IMG/VR virus record: IMGVR_UViG_3300045003_000166 | Location: 1 to 64,000 of that record | Strand: one strand, 5' to 3' | Source of the DNA: a virus | DNA: 64,000 nucleotides | Shown: piece after piece, positions 61,217-64,000 of the stretch | How the letters are laid out: each line of letters starts with the position of its first letter | Position numbering within the stretch: position 1 is the stretch's first letter | Made by a program: the position numbers and the translations under genes | The notes under the pieces: model-generated | The model's input: the letters and a program-made list of their open reading frames with translations, nothing else | Databases searched by the model: none | Told to the model about the DNA's origin: nothing

Positions 61217-61435
61217 ATGACGATGAGCAAGCCCGCCCGGGCGACGGTGAAGCCGACCGCGCACGGGTACCCGGCCGTGAAGAAGGCACGCGCCGTACCC
61301 GCCATGCGCACCGACGCGCTCGGCCGGGCGAAGGCGAAGGCCCCGATGGGTGGTTCGCCCGCCGACCACGTGGTCGCCCCGCCGATCGCCGCGCGCACCG
61401 TGGACAGCAAGACCATGGGCAAGCGCCTGAAGTGA
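61217..61435 (+). CDS. small basic protein
   Basis: AAGGA RBS; coupled to the next gene. Confidence 0.5.
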   Translation: MTMSKPARATVKPTAHGYPAVKKARAVPAMRTDALGRAKAKAPMGGSPADHVVAPPIAARTVDSKTMGKRLK

Positions 61436-63342
61436 GCACGGACCCGGGCCAGGGATCGGGCGCGCCCGATTCCTTCGGCCCGGTCACCGACGCCGTCTTC
61501 GCAGCCACCGCCGCCTACACCGCCGACCTGGCCGCGCTGGAGGACCAGGCCGCGGCGGTTGCCGCGGGCCCTCTGCGCAACGGAGTCGCCGAGTTGTTGC
61601 GGCGCCTGACAGCCCTGTACGCGCGCTTGGCCGGATCACTTGACGCCCCGCTGCCCGTGTCCGCCGTCCCGCAGCTGCAGCAGGAGACCGCCGCGGCGCT
61701 GAACGCATTGCGCGCCCTCGACCCGACGCAGGCGATCGCCGACTCCGCCTCACAGGCCTACCACCGCGCCGCGGCGTTCGGGCAAGAGCAGGTGGGCGCG
61801 GTCGCCGTCGACCAGCTGCCCGGCGCGCAGGCGGACGGCGCGCTCATCCAGGCCCTCGACGACATCGCCGGCACATTCTCCTCCCGGATCGACGAGGCCC
61901 AGCAGATCGCGCAGACGGTCGCAACCCTCGACTACCAATCCGCTGTCCTGGACACCGCGGCGAAGGCGGGCCAGGCGGCCGGCCGGGCGGAGGCCGCGGC
62001 CCGCTGGTCGGTGAACCGCGGCGGCAACGCCGGGATGCGCGACGTCGCCCGGCAGCGCGGCAGCTTCCTGCTCTGGGTGGGCGAGCCGACCGCGTGCCTG
62101 GCGTGTGTCGCGTACGTCGGCCACTTCGTCGTCCCCGGCCAGTCGTTCCCGATCGGGCTGACGTGGGGCGACAAGCCTCTGACGCCGTGGCCGGACCCGG
62201 ATGTGCTCGACGGTCCGCCGCTGCACGCGAACTGCCTACCTGGAGACGCCCTCGTAACGTCCCGTAGTCGAATTACGGGTGCGACCTCTCGGGTATACAA
62301 CGGTGAGCTCGTCGAAATCAGAACTCTGGCAAACAAAGTCTTCACCGCTACCCCCAACCATCCGGTATTGACGGACCGCGGTTGGGTCGCGCTCGGCTGC
62401 CTCGATAAGGGAAGCCACGTGGTCGGCACCCTCGGCAGTGAAGGGGTAGTGCTTCGAGACCAGAATGATCACCACGTGCCAACCCGCATCAAGCAGGTAG
62501 CGGAAGCGTTTTTGGGCTCGGGCCACGTGGTCTCCCGAGAAGTGCCAGTGGCCGCCGAAGACTTCCACGGCGACGGTACCGGTAGCGAGGTCGCAGTTGT
62601 AGGGACCAATCGCCTTTTGCGGCGTGGTCTCGATCCCTCGCTCCGAAAGCACCCTGCGGAGATGGTGCTCGAGCGGGCTGGAGTGCGATTGCCGTCGTTC
62701 TCTCGTCCTCGCGCTGCGGAGCAGTTCACCCTCAGTCCTCTTTCGTCCGCGGACTGCAGCATGGGCCGCTTCCGCCAGACGAGCACGCTCGAGAGCGGGA
62801 GTCTGAGCCATGCGTACGTACATGGCTTCACTACGCCCTCGGGGTTCGACTCCTTGTTCCAGCAGGAAGCGATGGATTGTCCGTCGGCTGACTCCGCTGA
62901 CTTCGGCCAGTGCCTTCTCGCTGGTTCCAGTGGCGTAGAGCTCGATCAGGTCATCAGCGTTCGCCGGTACCCATTTTCGGGACATGTCTACAACCTTGAG
63001 ACGGAGGCAGGATGGTACATCAGCAATGGAATTGTAACCCATAACTGCCGGTGTGAGCTGATCACCTGGCTGGGGCCGGCCGCCCTGCACCCGGTGGACA
63101 CCGCGATCTACCACCGGCCCGAGCTGCAGGGGAACGTCGACCTGGCCGCGGCGATGCGCCGGGAGGCGAAGCGCGCCGTCCTGCGCGGCTGGTCGCTGCC
63201 CAGCGAGTCGGAGGCGGTGCGGCTGCGCGGAGCCGAGCGGCTGCTGCGCGCCGGGTCCGGACTGCCGAAGACGGTGGAGGCGCGGGCCCGCAAGGCGGTC
63301 AAGGACAGGCACTTCCCCGATCGCCGTCATGTCAATATCTGA
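61432..63342 (+). CDS. MuF-like minor head protein interrupted by an intein
   Basis: ACLAC and PPLHAN|...|CRC motif split by a Hint domain. Confidence 0.85.
   Translation: MSTDPGQGSGAPDSFGPVTDAVFAATAAYTADLAALEDQAAAVAAGPLRNGVAELLRRLTALYARLAGSLDAPLPVSAVPQLQQETAAALNALRALDPTQAIADSASQAYHRAAAFGQEQVGAVAVDQLPGAQADGALIQALDDIAGTFSSRIDEAQQIAQTVATLDYQSAVLDTAAKAGQAAGRAEAAARWSVNRGGNAGMRDVARQRGSFLLWVGEPTACLACVAYVGHFVVPGQSFPIGLTWGDKPLTPWPDPDVLDGPPLHANCLPGDALVTSRSRITGATSRVYNGELVEIRTLANKVFTATPNHPVLTDRGWVALGCLDKGSHVVGTLGSEGVVLRDQNDHHVPTRIKQVAEAFLGSGHVVSREVPVAAEDFHGDGTGSEVAVVGTNRLLRRGLDPSLRKHPAEMVLERAGVRLPSFSRPRAAEQFTLSPLSSADCSMGRFRQTSTLESGSLSHAYVHGFTTPSGFDSLFQQEAMDCPSADSADFGQCLLAGSSGVELDQVISVRRYPFSGHVYNLETEAGWYISNGIVTHNCRCELITWLGPAALHPVDTAIYHRPELQGNVDLAAAMRREAKRAVLRGWSLPSESEAVRLRGAERLLRAGSGLPKTVEARARKAVKDRHFPDRRHVNI
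62233..63045 (+). mobile_element. intein (271 aa)
   Basis: Block A CLPGDALV, block B TATPNHPVLT, block F VYNLET, block G THN followed by Cys+1. Confidence 0.92.
62236..62985 (-). CDS. antisense-encoded HTH plus DUF559/Vsr-like endonuclease nested in the intein
   Basis: LAEVSGVSRRTIHRFL HTH; SPLE...QKAIGPYNCDLA...VAVEVFGGHWH...KRFRYLLDAGWHVVII. Confidence 0.8.
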   Translation of the reverse strand: MSRKWVPANADDLIELYATGTSEKALAEVSGVSRRTIHRFLLEQGVEPRGRSEAMYVRMAQTPALERARLAEAAHAAVRGRKRTEGELLRSARTRERRQSHSSPLEHHLRRVLSERGIETTPQKAIGPYNCDLATGTVAVEVFGGHWHFSGDHVARAQKRFRYLLDAGWHVVIILVSKHYPFTAEGADHVASLIEAAERDPTAVRQYRMVGGSGEDFVCQSSDFDELTVVYPRGRTRNSTTGRYEGVSR

Positions 63343-63397
63343 GCATCAAGTCCTATAGTTGACGCAACGTCCCCGGACTCCGCGATGGAGGCTGTAC

Positions 63398-64000
63398 ATG
63401 CTGATCGAGAATCCCTTCGCCCCGCTCGGCTTCCTGGGCGACGGCACCGCGGTCTACCCCTTGGCCGGCGCCGAGCCGCAGGAGGGCGAACTCGAGATCG
63501 AACCCGAAGACGAGGGCGTCGAGACCGGCGACGAGCCGGAGGACGGCGCCGACGCAGAGCCGGGTGGCGACGACGAGAAGGAGAAGCTGCGCGAGGCGCT
63601 GCGCAAGGCGAACGGCGAGGCCCGCAAGTACCGGCTGCAGGTGCGCGAGATGCAGGCGAAAGCAGCCGAGGCCGCGGTCGAGGAGGTCGAGGAGGAGGCG
63701 GCGCAGACCGGCGCTGAGGTCACTCCCGCCCAACTCAAGCGCGCGGTGGACAAGGCTAAGGCCGACGCCACGAAGGCGGCCGAGATCAAGTACCGCAAGG
63801 TCGCCGTCAACGCCGCCGCCCAGTCCGAGTTCGTCAAGGCGGGCGCGAAGGCCGCGAACGTGGCCAAGCTGGTGCGCCTTCTCGACGTGGACGACGTGGA
63901 CATCGACGCCGAGACCGGCGAGGTGACCGGCGGCCTGGCCGAGCAGATCGACGCCCTCAAGGACGAGTTCCCGGAGCTGTTCACCCCGGCGGAGGCTGCG
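63398..64000 (+). CDS. capsid scaffolding protein (partial)
   Basis: GGAGG RBS; acidic N-terminus; LRKANGEARKYR; LKDEFPELF; runs off the window. Confidence 0.8.
   Translation, partial: MLIENPFAPLGFLGDGTAVYPLAGAEPQEGELEIEPEDEGVETGDEPEDGADAEPGGDDEKEKLREALRKANGEARKYRLQVREMQAKAAEAAVEEVEEEAAQTGAEVTPAQLKRAVDKAKADATKAAEIKYRKVAVNAAAQSEFVKAGAKAANVAKLVRLLDVDDVDIDAETGEVTGGLAEQIDALKDEFPELFTPAEAA

What the first reader, a model, noticed from the sequence alone, without database searches (positions are those of the whole stretch)
62233..63045. Intein whose endonuclease is encoded on the opposite strand
Seen: the 271-aa intein in the MuF-like gene has intact splicing blocks, but its central region has no recognisable LAGLIDADG or HNH motif. 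The minus strand carries an uninterrupted ORF (62985-62236) wholly inside the intein, with an HTH and a DUF559/Vsr-like nuclease signature (SPLE, IGPYNCDL, VAVEVFGGHWH, GWHVVI). The intein's DFHGD is simply the reverse complement of VAVEV. About 750 bp therefore code on both strands, including intein blocks A and B. Established: intein homing endonucleases are normally in-frame domains, and Vsr-like homing endonucleases exist. Inference: a selfish element with a separately expressed antisense homing nuclease, uncoupled from late expression of the host gene.
Basis: partly seen in the sequence, partly recalled or inferred. Interest (0 to 1): 0.88.

Follow-up and report, generated by a model that had tools for sequence, protein, structure and literature searches.

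The report
Intein carrying an antisense homing-endonuclease gene
A self-splicing protein insert (intein) in a phage head-assembly gene carries, on the opposite DNA strand and codon against codon, a conserved gene for the DNA-cutting enzyme that probably spreads it; the layout is real and widespread but was already described in a 2025 preprint.

Summary
The window's 636-aa MuF-like gene (61432-63342) carries a 271-aa intein (62233-63045) at the HPN|CRC motif, and intein-less alleles exist.

The minus strand holds a 249-aa ORF (62985-62236) in the same codon register. It encodes an HTH plus a Vsr/EDxHD-fold nuclease: AF2 pLDDT 95.5, and Foldseek finds I-Bth0305I and Vsr at prob 1.0.

- **Sense frame:** only about 107 residues form a Hint fold. 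The centre scores pLDDT <50 and shows no nuclease.
- **Selection:** in 14 disjoint locus pairs, substitutions peak at the antisense wobble position inside the nuclease gene and at the sense wobble position in the flanks.
- **Layout elsewhere:** it recurs in 80 of 80 IMG/VR loci and 16 of 17 GenBank phage loci.
- **Stop-giving codons:** none of the three codons that would stop the host frame occur, against about 238 expected.
- **Start signals:** block F/G codons spell the nuclease's start codon, a Shine-Dalgarno-like site and a -10-like hexamer more often than codon usage predicts.

Gosselin et al. (bioRxiv 2025) already report antisense VSR-like endonucleases in actinophage minor-capsid inteins. 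This scan has also noted the layout on many other genomes. I file it as a new member of a known kind. Expression, cleavage and splicing remain untested.

The parts
61432..63342 (+). MuF-like head-morphogenesis (minor capsid) gene, precursor of 636 aa including the intein
   Evidence: ORF. PHROG phrog_15127 'head protein' at 1.2e-31. Intein-less homologues P0125 and P0126 match Pfam Phage_Mu_F weakly (E 0.0038 and 0.0014, below the cut-off), and P0137 matches at 1.8e-11. The gene lies between portal and scaffold-like genes.
61432..62232 (+). N-extein, ending ...P-P-L-H-A-N
   Evidence: Alignment with six intein-less alleles of 362-366 aa.
62233..63045 (+). Intein, 271 aa, class-1-type ends (Cys1 ... 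His-Asn, +1 Cys)
   Evidence: Pfam Intein_splicing 7e-7, 29.6 bits, under the 35.8 cut-off. Hint fold by VIA-align: Z 12.9, rmsd 1.5-2.1 A over 107 residues to the Mtu RecA mini-intein.
62233..62436 (+). Hint N-terminal part (about residues 1-68) with block A Cys1 (62233-62235) and block B T-P-N-H (62350-62361). It overlaps the tail of the antisense ORF.
   Evidence: AF2 pLDDT 81-95 for residues 1-70. T40, P41, N42 and H43 are invariant in 25 sequences. Substitutions are about equal at both wobble positions (240 vs 223) and few at position 2 (70).
62437..62934 (+). Sense-frame spacer (about residues 69-234): the stop-free reverse complement of the nuclease gene, with no confident fold of its own
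   Evidence: AF2 pLDDT <50 for residues 128-220. Only about 107 of 271 residues align to Hint structures. The sense-frame translation is less conserved than the antisense one in 17 of 17 loci. The boundaries are approximate.
62935..63045 (+). Hint C-terminal part (about residues 235-271), with block F (H-V-Y-N-L-E) and block G (G-I-V-T-H-N)
   Evidence: AF2 pLDDT 79-96. V252, T257, H270 and N271 are invariant.
63046..63339 (+). C-extein, starting C-R-C (the +1 nucleophile Cys is at 63046-63048)
   Evidence: Alignment with intein-less alleles.
62236..62985 (-). Antisense homing-endonuclease-like gene: 249 codons plus stop (TAG at 62238-62236, opposite the Leu2 codon of the intein)
   Evidence: AF2 pLDDT 95.5, pTM 0.81. 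Antisense-frame selection.
62830..62958 (-). Helix-turn-helix DNA-binding region (residues 10-52)
   Evidence: Pfam HTH_58 1.2e-4 and HTH_7 6.4e-4. The profile matches resolvase HTH structures at E about 4e-3. Helices 10-18, 23-30 and 34-43 appear in the model.
62386..62676 (-). Vsr/EDxHD-fold nuclease domain (about residues 104-200). Conserved residues: D132 (62590-62592), E141 (62563-62565), H148 (62542-62544).
   Evidence: Foldseek: 3r3p I-Bth0305I E 3.9e-4 prob 1.0, 1cw0 Vsr E 5e-3, 3hrl. Profile vs PDB: 3hrl 7.5e-4, 3r3p 0.0094. Pfam MTES_1575 2.8e-5, below the cut-off. Conservation in 69 sequences.
62983..62985 (-). Start codon ATG of the antisense gene, the reverse complement of the His codon of block F
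   Evidence: Starts aligned in 17 loci. The His codon is CAT in 42 and CAC in 9 of 51 distinct sequences.
62994..62997 (-). Shine-Dalgarno-like AAGG, 8 nt before the ATG, written in the Asn-Leu codons of block F
   Evidence: An SD-like motif is present in 45 of 51 distinct loci against 13.5 expected from extein codon usage. With Hint-part usage, 31 of 36 against 16.1. This is an inference, not shown to function.
63031..63036 (-). -10-like hexamer TACAAT, written in the Ile-Val codons (ATT GTA) of block G, 45 nt before the ATG
   Evidence: A -10-like hexamer sits at this position in 28 of 51 distinct loci against 9.2 expected. With Hint-part usage, 21 of 36 against 5.6. The consensus two-hexamer scan found no full promoter. 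This is an inference.

Best explanation
This is a composite selfish element. A small contiguous intein (a Hint domain of about 107 residues) sits at the conserved HPN|CRC motif of a phage MuF-like head-assembly protein. Its interior is occupied by a once free-standing homing-endonuclease gene (HTH plus Vsr/EDxHD-fold nuclease) lying on the opposite strand in exact codon register.

**Shown here**
- The host frame reads through because the nuclease gene never uses TTA, CTA or TCA, the three codons that would read as stops backwards.
- The centre of the element evolves under purifying selection in the antisense frame.
- The ends of the element and the exteins evolve under selection in the sense frame.

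**Inferred**
- The precursor is translated through about 160 spacer residues, and the Hint domain then splices itself out and restores MuF.
- The nuclease is made from its own antisense transcript. Its start codon, ribosome-binding site and probably its -10 element are written in the codons of splicing blocks F and G, so the element carries its own expression signals.
- The nuclease cuts intein-less MuF alleles near the HPN|CRC codons during co-infection, and repair copies the whole element in (homing).
For: **Intein**
- The ends and block B are present.
- The insertion is precise relative to six intein-less alleles of 362-366 aa.
- The Hint fold scores Z 10-13 at rmsd 1.5-2.3 A over about 107 residues, and all 62 chains with Z>=5 are Hint or intein domains.

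**Nuclease**
- AF2 pLDDT 95.5 from a 69-sequence alignment.
- Foldseek top hits are the I-Bth0305I catalytic domain, Vsr and the DUF559 protein 3hrl, at prob 0.98-1.0.
- The profile matches 3hrl at 7.5e-4 and 3r3p at 0.0094.
- D132 is invariant, and E141 and H148 are at least 90% conserved.

**No sense-frame nuclease**
- Shown: **Selection (14 disjoint pairs)**

| Region | Antisense wobble | Sense wobble | Pairs agreeing |
|---|---|---|---|
| Nuclease middle | 451 | 269 | 14 of 14 |
| Nuclease core | 313 | 186 | 14 of 14 |
| HTH | 412 | 303 | 13 of 14 |
| N-extein | 112 | 191 | 14 of 14 (reversed) |
| C-extein + blocks G/F | 107 | 182 | 9 of 13 (reversed) |

- The five-phage enterobacterial group shows the same pattern.
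- Antisense-frame BLASTP scores exceed sense-frame scores for the same DNA in 17 of 17 loci: 60-148 against 14-72 bits.

**Recurrence**
- A spanning, codon-aligned opposite ORF is present in 80 of 80 IMG/VR loci and 16 of 17 GenBank loci.
- There are 0 TTA/CTA/TCA codons in 73 distinct nuclease regions against 238.5 expected. A free-standing relative has 12.

**Mobility**
- Intein-less alleles sit at 61-67% extein identity, and the closest extein relative carries a related intein at another site.

**Expression signals**
- Supported.
Against: - No transcript, protein, cleavage or splicing data exist for this element. No RNA run could be listed.
- The consensus promoter scan found no two-hexamer sigma-70 site in 61900-63500. 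The window's -10-like hexamer has no convincing -35.
- For the window alone, the absence of TTA/CTA/TCA is weak evidence, since only 2.1 were expected. The case rests on the family.
- Pfam matches for both the intein (29.6 against 35.8 bits) and the nuclease (24.5 against 38.2 bits) fall below the curated cut-offs.
- The loci share descent, so the counts of codon bias in blocks F/G are not independent events. The regex also located blocks F/G in only 60 of 97 loci.
- The preprint states that some VSR-like groups look vertically inherited (section 15), so ongoing homing of this particular copy is not shown.
- AF2 gives moderate confidence (pLDDT 83-87) to sense residues 80-100. A structured sense segment opposite the nuclease core therefore cannot be excluded.
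Confidence: 0.85

Rival explanations
1. The antisense ORF is a chance open frame in GC-rich DNA. The intein's real function, or a degenerate endonuclease, lies in the sense frame.
For: Long antisense open frames are common in high-GC genomes. The window shows several elsewhere, and only 2.1 stop-giving codons were expected here.
Against: - The ORF is kept in phages of 41-54% GC, such as Aaphi23, Vibrio and Salmonella phages.
- The antisense translation is the better conserved one in 17 of 17 loci.
- Wobble-position substitutions follow the antisense frame.
- The antisense protein folds confidently as a Vsr-type nuclease.
- The sense centre has pLDDT <50 and no family match.
Confidence: 0.02
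2. The antisense gene is real, but in this phage it is a relic or has been put to another use, for example as a DNA-binding regulator or a nuclease with a different target. The intein is then now inherited vertically and no longer homes.
For: There are no activity data. The preprint reports that several VSR-like groups look vertically inherited. The protein has a strong HTH part. Antisense transcription through a late structural gene could itself be regulatory.
Against: - Purifying selection acts on the nuclease core, and the acidic and His residues are conserved.
- Intein-plus and intein-minus alleles are distributed patchily among close exteins, and a related intein sits at a second site.
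- The insertion-site motif is the same in nearly all of the 80 IMG/VR loci, as expected for a site-specific nuclease.
Confidence: 0.12
3. The endonuclease and the intein are independent passengers. The nuclease gene merely uses the intein as a safe harbour and mobilises only itself, as free-standing phage homing-endonuclease genes do. The intein would then not depend on it.
For: A free-standing relative sits next to an intein-less MuF-like gene in Acinetobacter phage IME285. Dassa et al. 2009 describe related free-standing forms (and the abstract in the listing).
Against: The nuclease ORF spans the intein from block F to residue 2, and its start signals lie in intein codons. Any copy event that moves the gene therefore moves the intein as well. 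In effect this describes the origin of the best explanation rather than an alternative to it.
Confidence: 0.05

Closest known systems
Inteins with anti-sense VSR-like homing endonucleases in actinobacteriophages (Gosselin, Arsenault and Gogarten, bioRxiv 10.1101/2025.01.02.630785, version of 2025-10-20). I saw the abstract, all of section 15, and passages of sections 3, 8, 12, 14 and 28. Supplements were closed.
   Same: A contiguous intein with a VSR-like endonuclease ORF on the antisense strand. The host proteins include the minor capsid (MuF-type) protein of actinophages. The sense centre is reported there as unstructured, and their antisense model matches Vsr (1CW0) and, by HHpred, 3R3P. 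I found the same things independently.
   Different: The window's phage is an uncultivated IMG/VR record and is not in their set. The preprint covers PhagesDB actinophages only. Here the same element also turns up in Salmonella, Escherichia, Pantoea, Vibrio, Pseudomonas, Klebsiella and Aggregatibacter phages and in at least 577 IMG/VR stretches. A word search of its main text finds no 'promoter' or 'ribosome binding'. The codon-position test, the stop-codon-avoidance count and the block F/G start signals are therefore additions, unless they appear in supplements I could not see.
'Fractured genes': split inteins with a free-standing Vsr-like homing-endonuclease gene between the halves (Dassa et al. 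2009, PMC2677866). I saw the start of the abstract in the listing and some passages; the rest is recalled.
   Same: The endonuclease superfamily is the same, associated with inteins in phage genes. The proposed origin is also the same: invasion of an intein by a free-standing endonuclease gene.
   Different: There the host gene is broken into two ORFs and splicing occurs in trans. Here the host gene is one uninterrupted 636-codon ORF, and the endonuclease gene is read on the other strand.
I-Bth0305I, an EDxHD-family homing endonuclease in a group I intron of Bacillus phage 0305phi8-36 recA (Taylor et al. 2011, PMC3239194; structure 3R3P). I saw only the listing and the start of the abstract.
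   Same: It is the best structural match of the antisense protein's nuclease domain: Foldseek E 3.9e-4, prob 1.0, TM 0.63 on the target. The profile E-value is 0.0094.
   Different: It is carried by an intron, in the sense orientation. Identity over the aligned stretch is only 17-18%. I did not map the EDxHD residues onto this protein.
Antisense LAGLIDADG endonucleases inside inteins (Gorbalenya 1998; Gogarten et al. 2002). These are cited through the preprint; I did not read them.
   Same: The endonuclease is encoded on the strand opposite to a contiguous intein.
   Different: The nuclease family differs (LAGLIDADG), and so do the host genes.
Canonical bifunctional inteins with an in-frame LAGLIDADG or HNH domain (for example the VMA inteins 7qss and 7qst)
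   Same: The Hint splicing fold is shared, and the endonuclease module sits in the same place, between the N and C parts of the Hint domain.
   Different: In canonical inteins the endonuclease is a domain of the same polypeptide. Here it is a separate protein from the other strand, and the in-frame insert is a spacer.

Membership tests
Intein (Hint-domain protein-splicing element) | N-terminal nucleophile (Cys/Ser) at residue 1 and the block B T-x-x-H motif | tested here: met
   Cys1 and T40-P-N-H43 are present. The block B residues are invariant in 25 aligned sequences.
Intein (Hint-domain protein-splicing element) | C-terminal His-Asn followed by Cys/Ser/Thr as the first C-extein residue | tested here: met
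   H270-N271 is followed by Cys. H270 and N271 are invariant.
Intein (Hint-domain protein-splicing element) | Hint fold | tested here: met
   VIA-align gives Z 12.9, rmsd 1.5-2.1 A over 107 residues to the Mtu RecA mini-intein. All 62 chains at Z>=5 are Hint, intein or hedgehog domains. Foldseek prob is 1.0.
Intein (Hint-domain protein-splicing element) | Precise in-frame insertion relative to intein-less alleles of the host protein | tested here: met
   Six homologues of 362-366 aa read straight through the H-P-N-C-R-C motif with no insert.
Intein (Hint-domain protein-splicing element) | Curated Pfam score for Intein_splicing | tested here: not met
   The score is 29.6 bits against a cut-off of 35.8, at E 7e-7. 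The model aligns across the long insert, and fold and motifs carry the assignment.
Intein (Hint-domain protein-splicing element) | Protein splicing activity | not testable with these tools
   This needs expression of the precursor.
Vsr-like / EDxHD homing endonucleases (I-Bth0305I family) | Vsr-type nuclease fold | tested here: met
   Foldseek: 3r3p E 3.9e-4, 1cw0 5e-3, 1vsr and 3hrl, all at prob 0.98-1.0, on a model with pLDDT 95.5.
Vsr-like / EDxHD homing endonucleases (I-Bth0305I family) | Sequence-profile membership | tested here: inconclusive
   Profile vs PDB: 3hrl 7.5e-4, 3r3p 0.0094, 1cw0 0.44. Pfam MTES_1575 scores 24.5 bits against a cut-off of 38.2. Several relatives carry PF18741 or PF04480 and are named very-short-patch-repair endonuclease by JGI.
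Vsr-like / EDxHD homing endonucleases (I-Bth0305I family) | Conserved catalytic acidic and His residues | tested here: inconclusive
   D132 is invariant, and E141 and H148 are at least 90% conserved in 69 sequences. They align to the D...E..G..H pattern of 3hrl. I did not map them onto the EDxHD motif residue by residue.
Vsr-like / EDxHD homing endonucleases (I-Bth0305I family) | Site-specific cleavage of the element-free allele | not testable with these tools
   This needs a biochemical assay.
Anti-sense VSR-like HEN inteins (Gosselin et al. 2025) | Contiguous intein with a VSR-like endonuclease ORF on the antisense strand inside it | tested here: met
Anti-sense VSR-like HEN inteins (Gosselin et al. 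2025) | Host is an actinobacteriophage minor capsid (MuF-type) protein | tested here: met
   PHROG 'head protein' at 1.2e-31. Homologues carry Phage_Mu_F. The portal's nearest relatives are Streptomyces and Arthrobacter phages at 29-39% identity. Homologues of the antisense protein lie in Gordonia phage MuF genes.
Fractured gene / split intein with a free-standing endonuclease (Dassa et al. 2009) | Host gene broken into two separate ORFs, each carrying half of a split intein | tested here: not met
   The host frame is open through the whole element as a single 636-codon ORF. The same holds in 80 of 80 IMG/VR loci.

The most novel reading that the evidence does not exclude
The element may be a fully self-contained, two-strand selfish unit. 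On this reading, the last 20 or so codons of the intein (splicing blocks F and G) are at the same time the promoter -10 element, the ribosome-binding site and the start codon of the antisense endonuclease gene. The stop of that gene is the Leu2 codon of block A. Any homing event would then carry the nuclease's expression signals into a new phage, and the nuclease could be made by host RNA polymerase independently of (and convergent with) late head-gene transcription. One ancestral fusion of this kind would have spread across phages of Actinobacteria and Proteobacteria at the same MuF motif. The preprint's main text does not mention these signals. Earlier notes of this scan do.
Probability: 0.45. 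Interest if true: 0.6.

Novelty: new member of a known kind. Interest (0 to 1): 0.4.

Why it matters
- **Evolutionary intermediate:** the element shows a living intermediate in how inteins acquire endonucleases. A free-standing homing-endonuclease gene lodges inside a mini-intein and is tolerated because one codon register lets the host frame stay open.
- **Dual coding:** it is a clear natural case of long antisense dual coding with a measurable switch of the selected frame.
- **Annotation gap:** of the 15 annotated GenBank records I fetched with this layout, only 1 annotates the antisense gene. Its mirror-image motif in the sense frame could be mistaken for an intein motif.
- **Practical use:** it offers a very small Hint domain (about 107 residues) that tolerates an unstructured insert of about 160 residues. 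It also offers a large family of untested site-specific nucleases aimed at one conserved phage motif.

Tried and rejected
**Searches and scans that gave nothing useful**
- blastn ('distant') of the whole gene against GenBank phages gave no match. The relatives are visible only at the protein level.
- phmmer of the single antisense protein against PDB sequences gave only a spurious coiled-coil hit at E 0.22. The profile search and the fold search were needed.
- The two-hexamer promoter and terminator scan of 61900-63500 found nothing.
- No RNA holder was listed for window:62100-63200.
- My first pair selection for the codon-position test (70-98.5% identity) gave only 2 pairs. I widened it to 60-98.5% and added GenBank loci, which gave 14 pairs.
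- The extein-based expectation for the -10-like hexamer is too generous, because the intein uses AT-richer codons than the exteins. I repeated it with the intein's own Hint-part codon usage. The excess remained, at 21 of 36 observed against 5.6 expected.
- My regex for blocks F/G missed 37 of 97 loci. Those loci are simply not counted.

**Literature**
- Searches returned nothing on point.
- One search found the preprint, and one search found only that preprint.
- Whether the antisense layout is in print elsewhere rests on these six searches of PMC and bioRxiv only.
- The preprint's supplementary tables, which list clusters and phages, were closed. They may name relatives of this element.

**Considered and rejected**
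- A chance ORF (see the rival explanations).
- A split intein or fractured gene: the host frame is continuous.
- An in-frame nuclease: none was found.
Full report
**What is there**

The window comes from an uncultivated virus record of 72,563 bases, judged 94% complete. Its portal protein is most like those of Streptomyces and Arthrobacter phages, at 29-39% identity.

Downstream of the portal gene lies a 636-codon ORF, 61432-63342. It matches the PHROG 'head protein' family phrog_15127 at 1.2e-31. Its intein-less homologues match Pfam Phage_Mu_F weakly, and a more distant homologue (P0137) matches it significantly.

Residues 268-538 (62233-63045) have the ends of a class-1 intein. They start with Cys1, hold T-P-N-H at residues 40-43, and end in His-Asn followed by Cys. 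Six homologues of 362-366 aa read straight through the H-P-N-C-R-C motif with no insert, so the insertion is precise. GC drops from 0.72-0.78 in the flanks to 0.54-0.65 inside the insert.

**The antisense ORF**

From ATG 62985 down to the stop at 62238-62236, the minus strand is open for 249 codons. It is aligned codon for codon with the intein frame.

Pfam gives weak but coherent matches:
- an HTH at residues 10-52 (1.2e-4);
- the Vsr-related REase family MTES_1575 at residues 106-180 (2.8e-5, below the curated cut-off).

**Is the antisense ORF a gene?**

Three independent kinds of evidence say yes.

- **Conservation.** tblastn finds it in 125 GenBank phage records, 113 of them over at least 80% of its length. 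These include Gordonia (45-46% identity, E 8e-42), Salmonella, Escherichia and Pantoea (34-39%, about 1e-31), Vibrio, Pseudomonas, Aggregatibacter and Klebsiella phages. A protein search gives 126 relatives, some named very-short-patch-repair endonuclease by their source. At least 577 IMG/VR stretches encode a relative.
- **Structure.** With a 69-sequence alignment, AlphaFold2 gives pLDDT 95.5 and pTM 0.81. Foldseek's best matches are the catalytic domain of the homing endonuclease I-Bth0305I (E 3.9e-4, prob 1.0), E. coli Vsr and the DUF559 protein 3hrl. The sequence profile also reaches 3hrl (7.5e-4), 3r3p (0.0094) and resolvase-type HTH domains. D132 is invariant, and E141 and H148 are nearly so.
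- **Selection.** In 14 disjoint pairs of loci (60-98.5% nucleotide identity), substitutions concentrate at the antisense third position inside the nuclease gene. They concentrate at the sense third position in the exteins.

| Region | Antisense wobble | Sense wobble | Pairs agreeing |
|---|---|---|---|
| HTH | 412 | 303 | 13 of 14 |
| Nuclease middle | 451 | 269 | 14 of 14 |
| Nuclease core | 313 | 186 | 14 of 14 |
| N-extein | 112 | 191 | 14 of 14 (reversed) |
| C-extein plus blocks G/F | 107 | 182 | 9 of 13 (reversed) |

Five enterobacterial phages show the same switch block by block. For the same central DNA, the antisense translation scores higher than the sense translation in 17 of 17 loci.

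**The sense frame**

Pfam finds only the splicing domain. AlphaFold2, with 25 aligned intein-containing homologues, gives confident structure for residues 1-70 and about 230-271. Residues 128-220 score pLDDT <50.

Structural comparison returns only Hint, intein and hedgehog domains. It aligns about 107 of the 271 residues, at Z up to 13 and rmsd 1.5-2.3 A. No nuclease appears in the sense frame. The centre therefore looks like a stop-free spacer.

A caveat: residues 80-100 get pLDDT 83-87. They lie opposite the most conserved part of the nuclease, so that confidence may only mirror antisense conservation. I cannot exclude a structured segment there.

Where the nuclease's C-terminal tail overlaps the Hint N part (blocks A and B), both wobble positions vary about equally (240 against 223) and second positions hardly at all (70). 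That is what dual constraint predicts. The conserved tail motif of the antisense protein is the mirror of block B. Some relatives end earlier, so the last 20 or so residues may be a run-on.

**How the host frame stays open**

In this register, sense stops correspond to the antisense codons TTA, CTA and TCA.
- In 73 distinct nuclease regions there are none, against 238.5 expected from the Leu and Ser codon usage of the same loci's exteins.
- A free-standing relative in Acinetobacter phage IME285 has 12.
- For the high-GC window alone only 2.1 were expected, so the argument rests on the family, above all on the 41-54% GC phages.
- All 80 IMG/VR loci kept by the search have a spanning opposite ORF in the same register.
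- So do 16 of 17 GenBank loci (and the annotations).
- Nearly all of the 80 show the same extein context, P-P-x-H-x-x before the intein Cys.

**Start signals (inference)**

In 17 loci the antisense ORF starts at the codon opposite the His of block F. The His codon is CAT in 42 and CAC in 9 of 51 distinct sequences, giving ATG or GTG.

- Eight bases upstream, the Asn-Leu codons of block F spell a Shine-Dalgarno-like word. In the window it is AAGG, at 62997-62994.
- Forty-five bases upstream, the two hydrophobic residues of block G are encoded so that the antisense strand reads a -10-like hexamer. In the window it is TACAAT, at 63036-63031. Many enterobacterial and Vibrio phages carry TATAAT preceded by TG.

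| Control used for the expectation | -10-like, observed vs expected | SD-like, observed vs expected |
|---|---|---|
| Extein codon usage, 51 distinct loci | 28 vs 9.2 | 45 vs 13.5 |
| Intein Hint-part usage, loci under 60% GC, n = 15 | 11 vs 4.7 | 13 vs 6.6 |
| Intein Hint-part usage, loci at or above 60% GC, n = 21 | 10 vs 0.9 | 18 vs 9.5 |

Against this:
- the consensus two-hexamer scan finds no promoter in the window;
- the loci share ancestry, so the counts are not independent;
- blocks F/G were located in only 60 of 97 loci;
- no RNA data could be had.

**Mobility**

Intein-less alleles are 61-67% identical to the window's protein over the aligned columns. The closest relative, P0124 (66%), has no insert at HPN|CRC. 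It carries a related intein, with the same mirror motif, before the first Cys of the upstream C-x-x-C. P0137 carries two such inteins. This patchiness fits a mobile element. Homing by this particular copy is not shown.

**Comparison with what is known**

I found the arrangement in print. Gosselin, Arsenault and Gogarten (bioRxiv 10.1101/2025.01.02.630785) surveyed PhagesDB. They report inteins whose VSR-like endonuclease lies on the antisense strand, with minor capsid proteins among the hosts. They report unstructured sense centres and structural matches to Vsr and 3R3P. They cite earlier antisense LAGLIDADG cases (Gorbalenya 1998; Gogarten 2002), which I did not read. Dassa et al. 2009 (PMC2677866) described the same nuclease superfamily in split inteins. 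That layout is not met here, because the host ORF is continuous.

This scan has also noted the layout on many other genomes: 191 notes in at least 144 genomes. Two earlier reports describe start signals inside block F/G codons. I reached the preprint and the signals before reading those notes, and I tested both here.

**Verdict**

The window holds a new member of a known kind.

- quantitative evidence for the switch of the selected frame;
- complete avoidance of the three stop-giving codons;
- a distribution far beyond actinophages;
- codon-level support for expression signals embedded in the splicing blocks.

Expression, cleavage, splicing and homing all remain untested.

Noticed in passing
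P0124 (alignment A2); no DNA held: P0124 is the closest homologue of the window's MuF-like protein, at 66% identity. It has no intein at the HPN|CRC site. Instead it carries a related intein, with the same mirror motif of the antisense nuclease, before the first Cys of the upstream C-x-x-C motif. This is a second insertion site in the same protein.
   Followed up: partly
P0137 (alignment A3; Pfam): This 970-aa MuF-like protein appears to carry two inteins of this type in one gene. Both show the sense-frame mirror motif, and Pfam reports two Intein_splicing stretches.
   Followed up: partly
L008 (Acinetobacter phage vB_AbaM_IME285) 455-1348 and 1342-2055: This is a free-standing relative of the nuclease gene. 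It converges on, and overlaps by a few bases, the 3' end of an intein-less MuF-like gene that ends shortly after its C-K-C motif. It holds 12 TTA/CTA/TCA codons, so the opposite frame is closed. Just upstream of its ATG, the opposite strand still reads a block-F-like remnant broken by stops.
   Followed up: partly
L001, L004, L007, L009, L010, L011, L015 and L017: Many relatives of the nuclease are 280-303 aa long because they have an extra N-terminal HTH-like segment. Even so, they still start at the codon opposite the block F His, and the intein is correspondingly longer.
   Followed up: no
L001-L017, annotation tables: Of the 15 annotated GenBank records with the antisense layout, only Salmonella phage PK2 annotates the antisense ORF, as a hypothetical protein. 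Escherichia phage Snoke annotates the intein but not the nuclease gene. The search listing shows that PK1 does the same as PK2.
   Followed up: no
window 62233-63045 against its flanks: GC falls from 0.72-0.78 to 0.54-0.65 across the element. It is lowest at the two ends, where the splicing blocks lie. This fits recent acquisition, constraint from AT-rich antisense signals, or both.
   Followed up: partly
window 62536-62577 (sense residues about 102-115): The sense-frame motif around E-D-F-H-G-D-G is invariant or nearly so in 25 intein-containing proteins. The only reason is that it mirrors the nuclease's catalytic strand. It could be misread as a new intein motif in protein-only surveys.
   Followed up: yes
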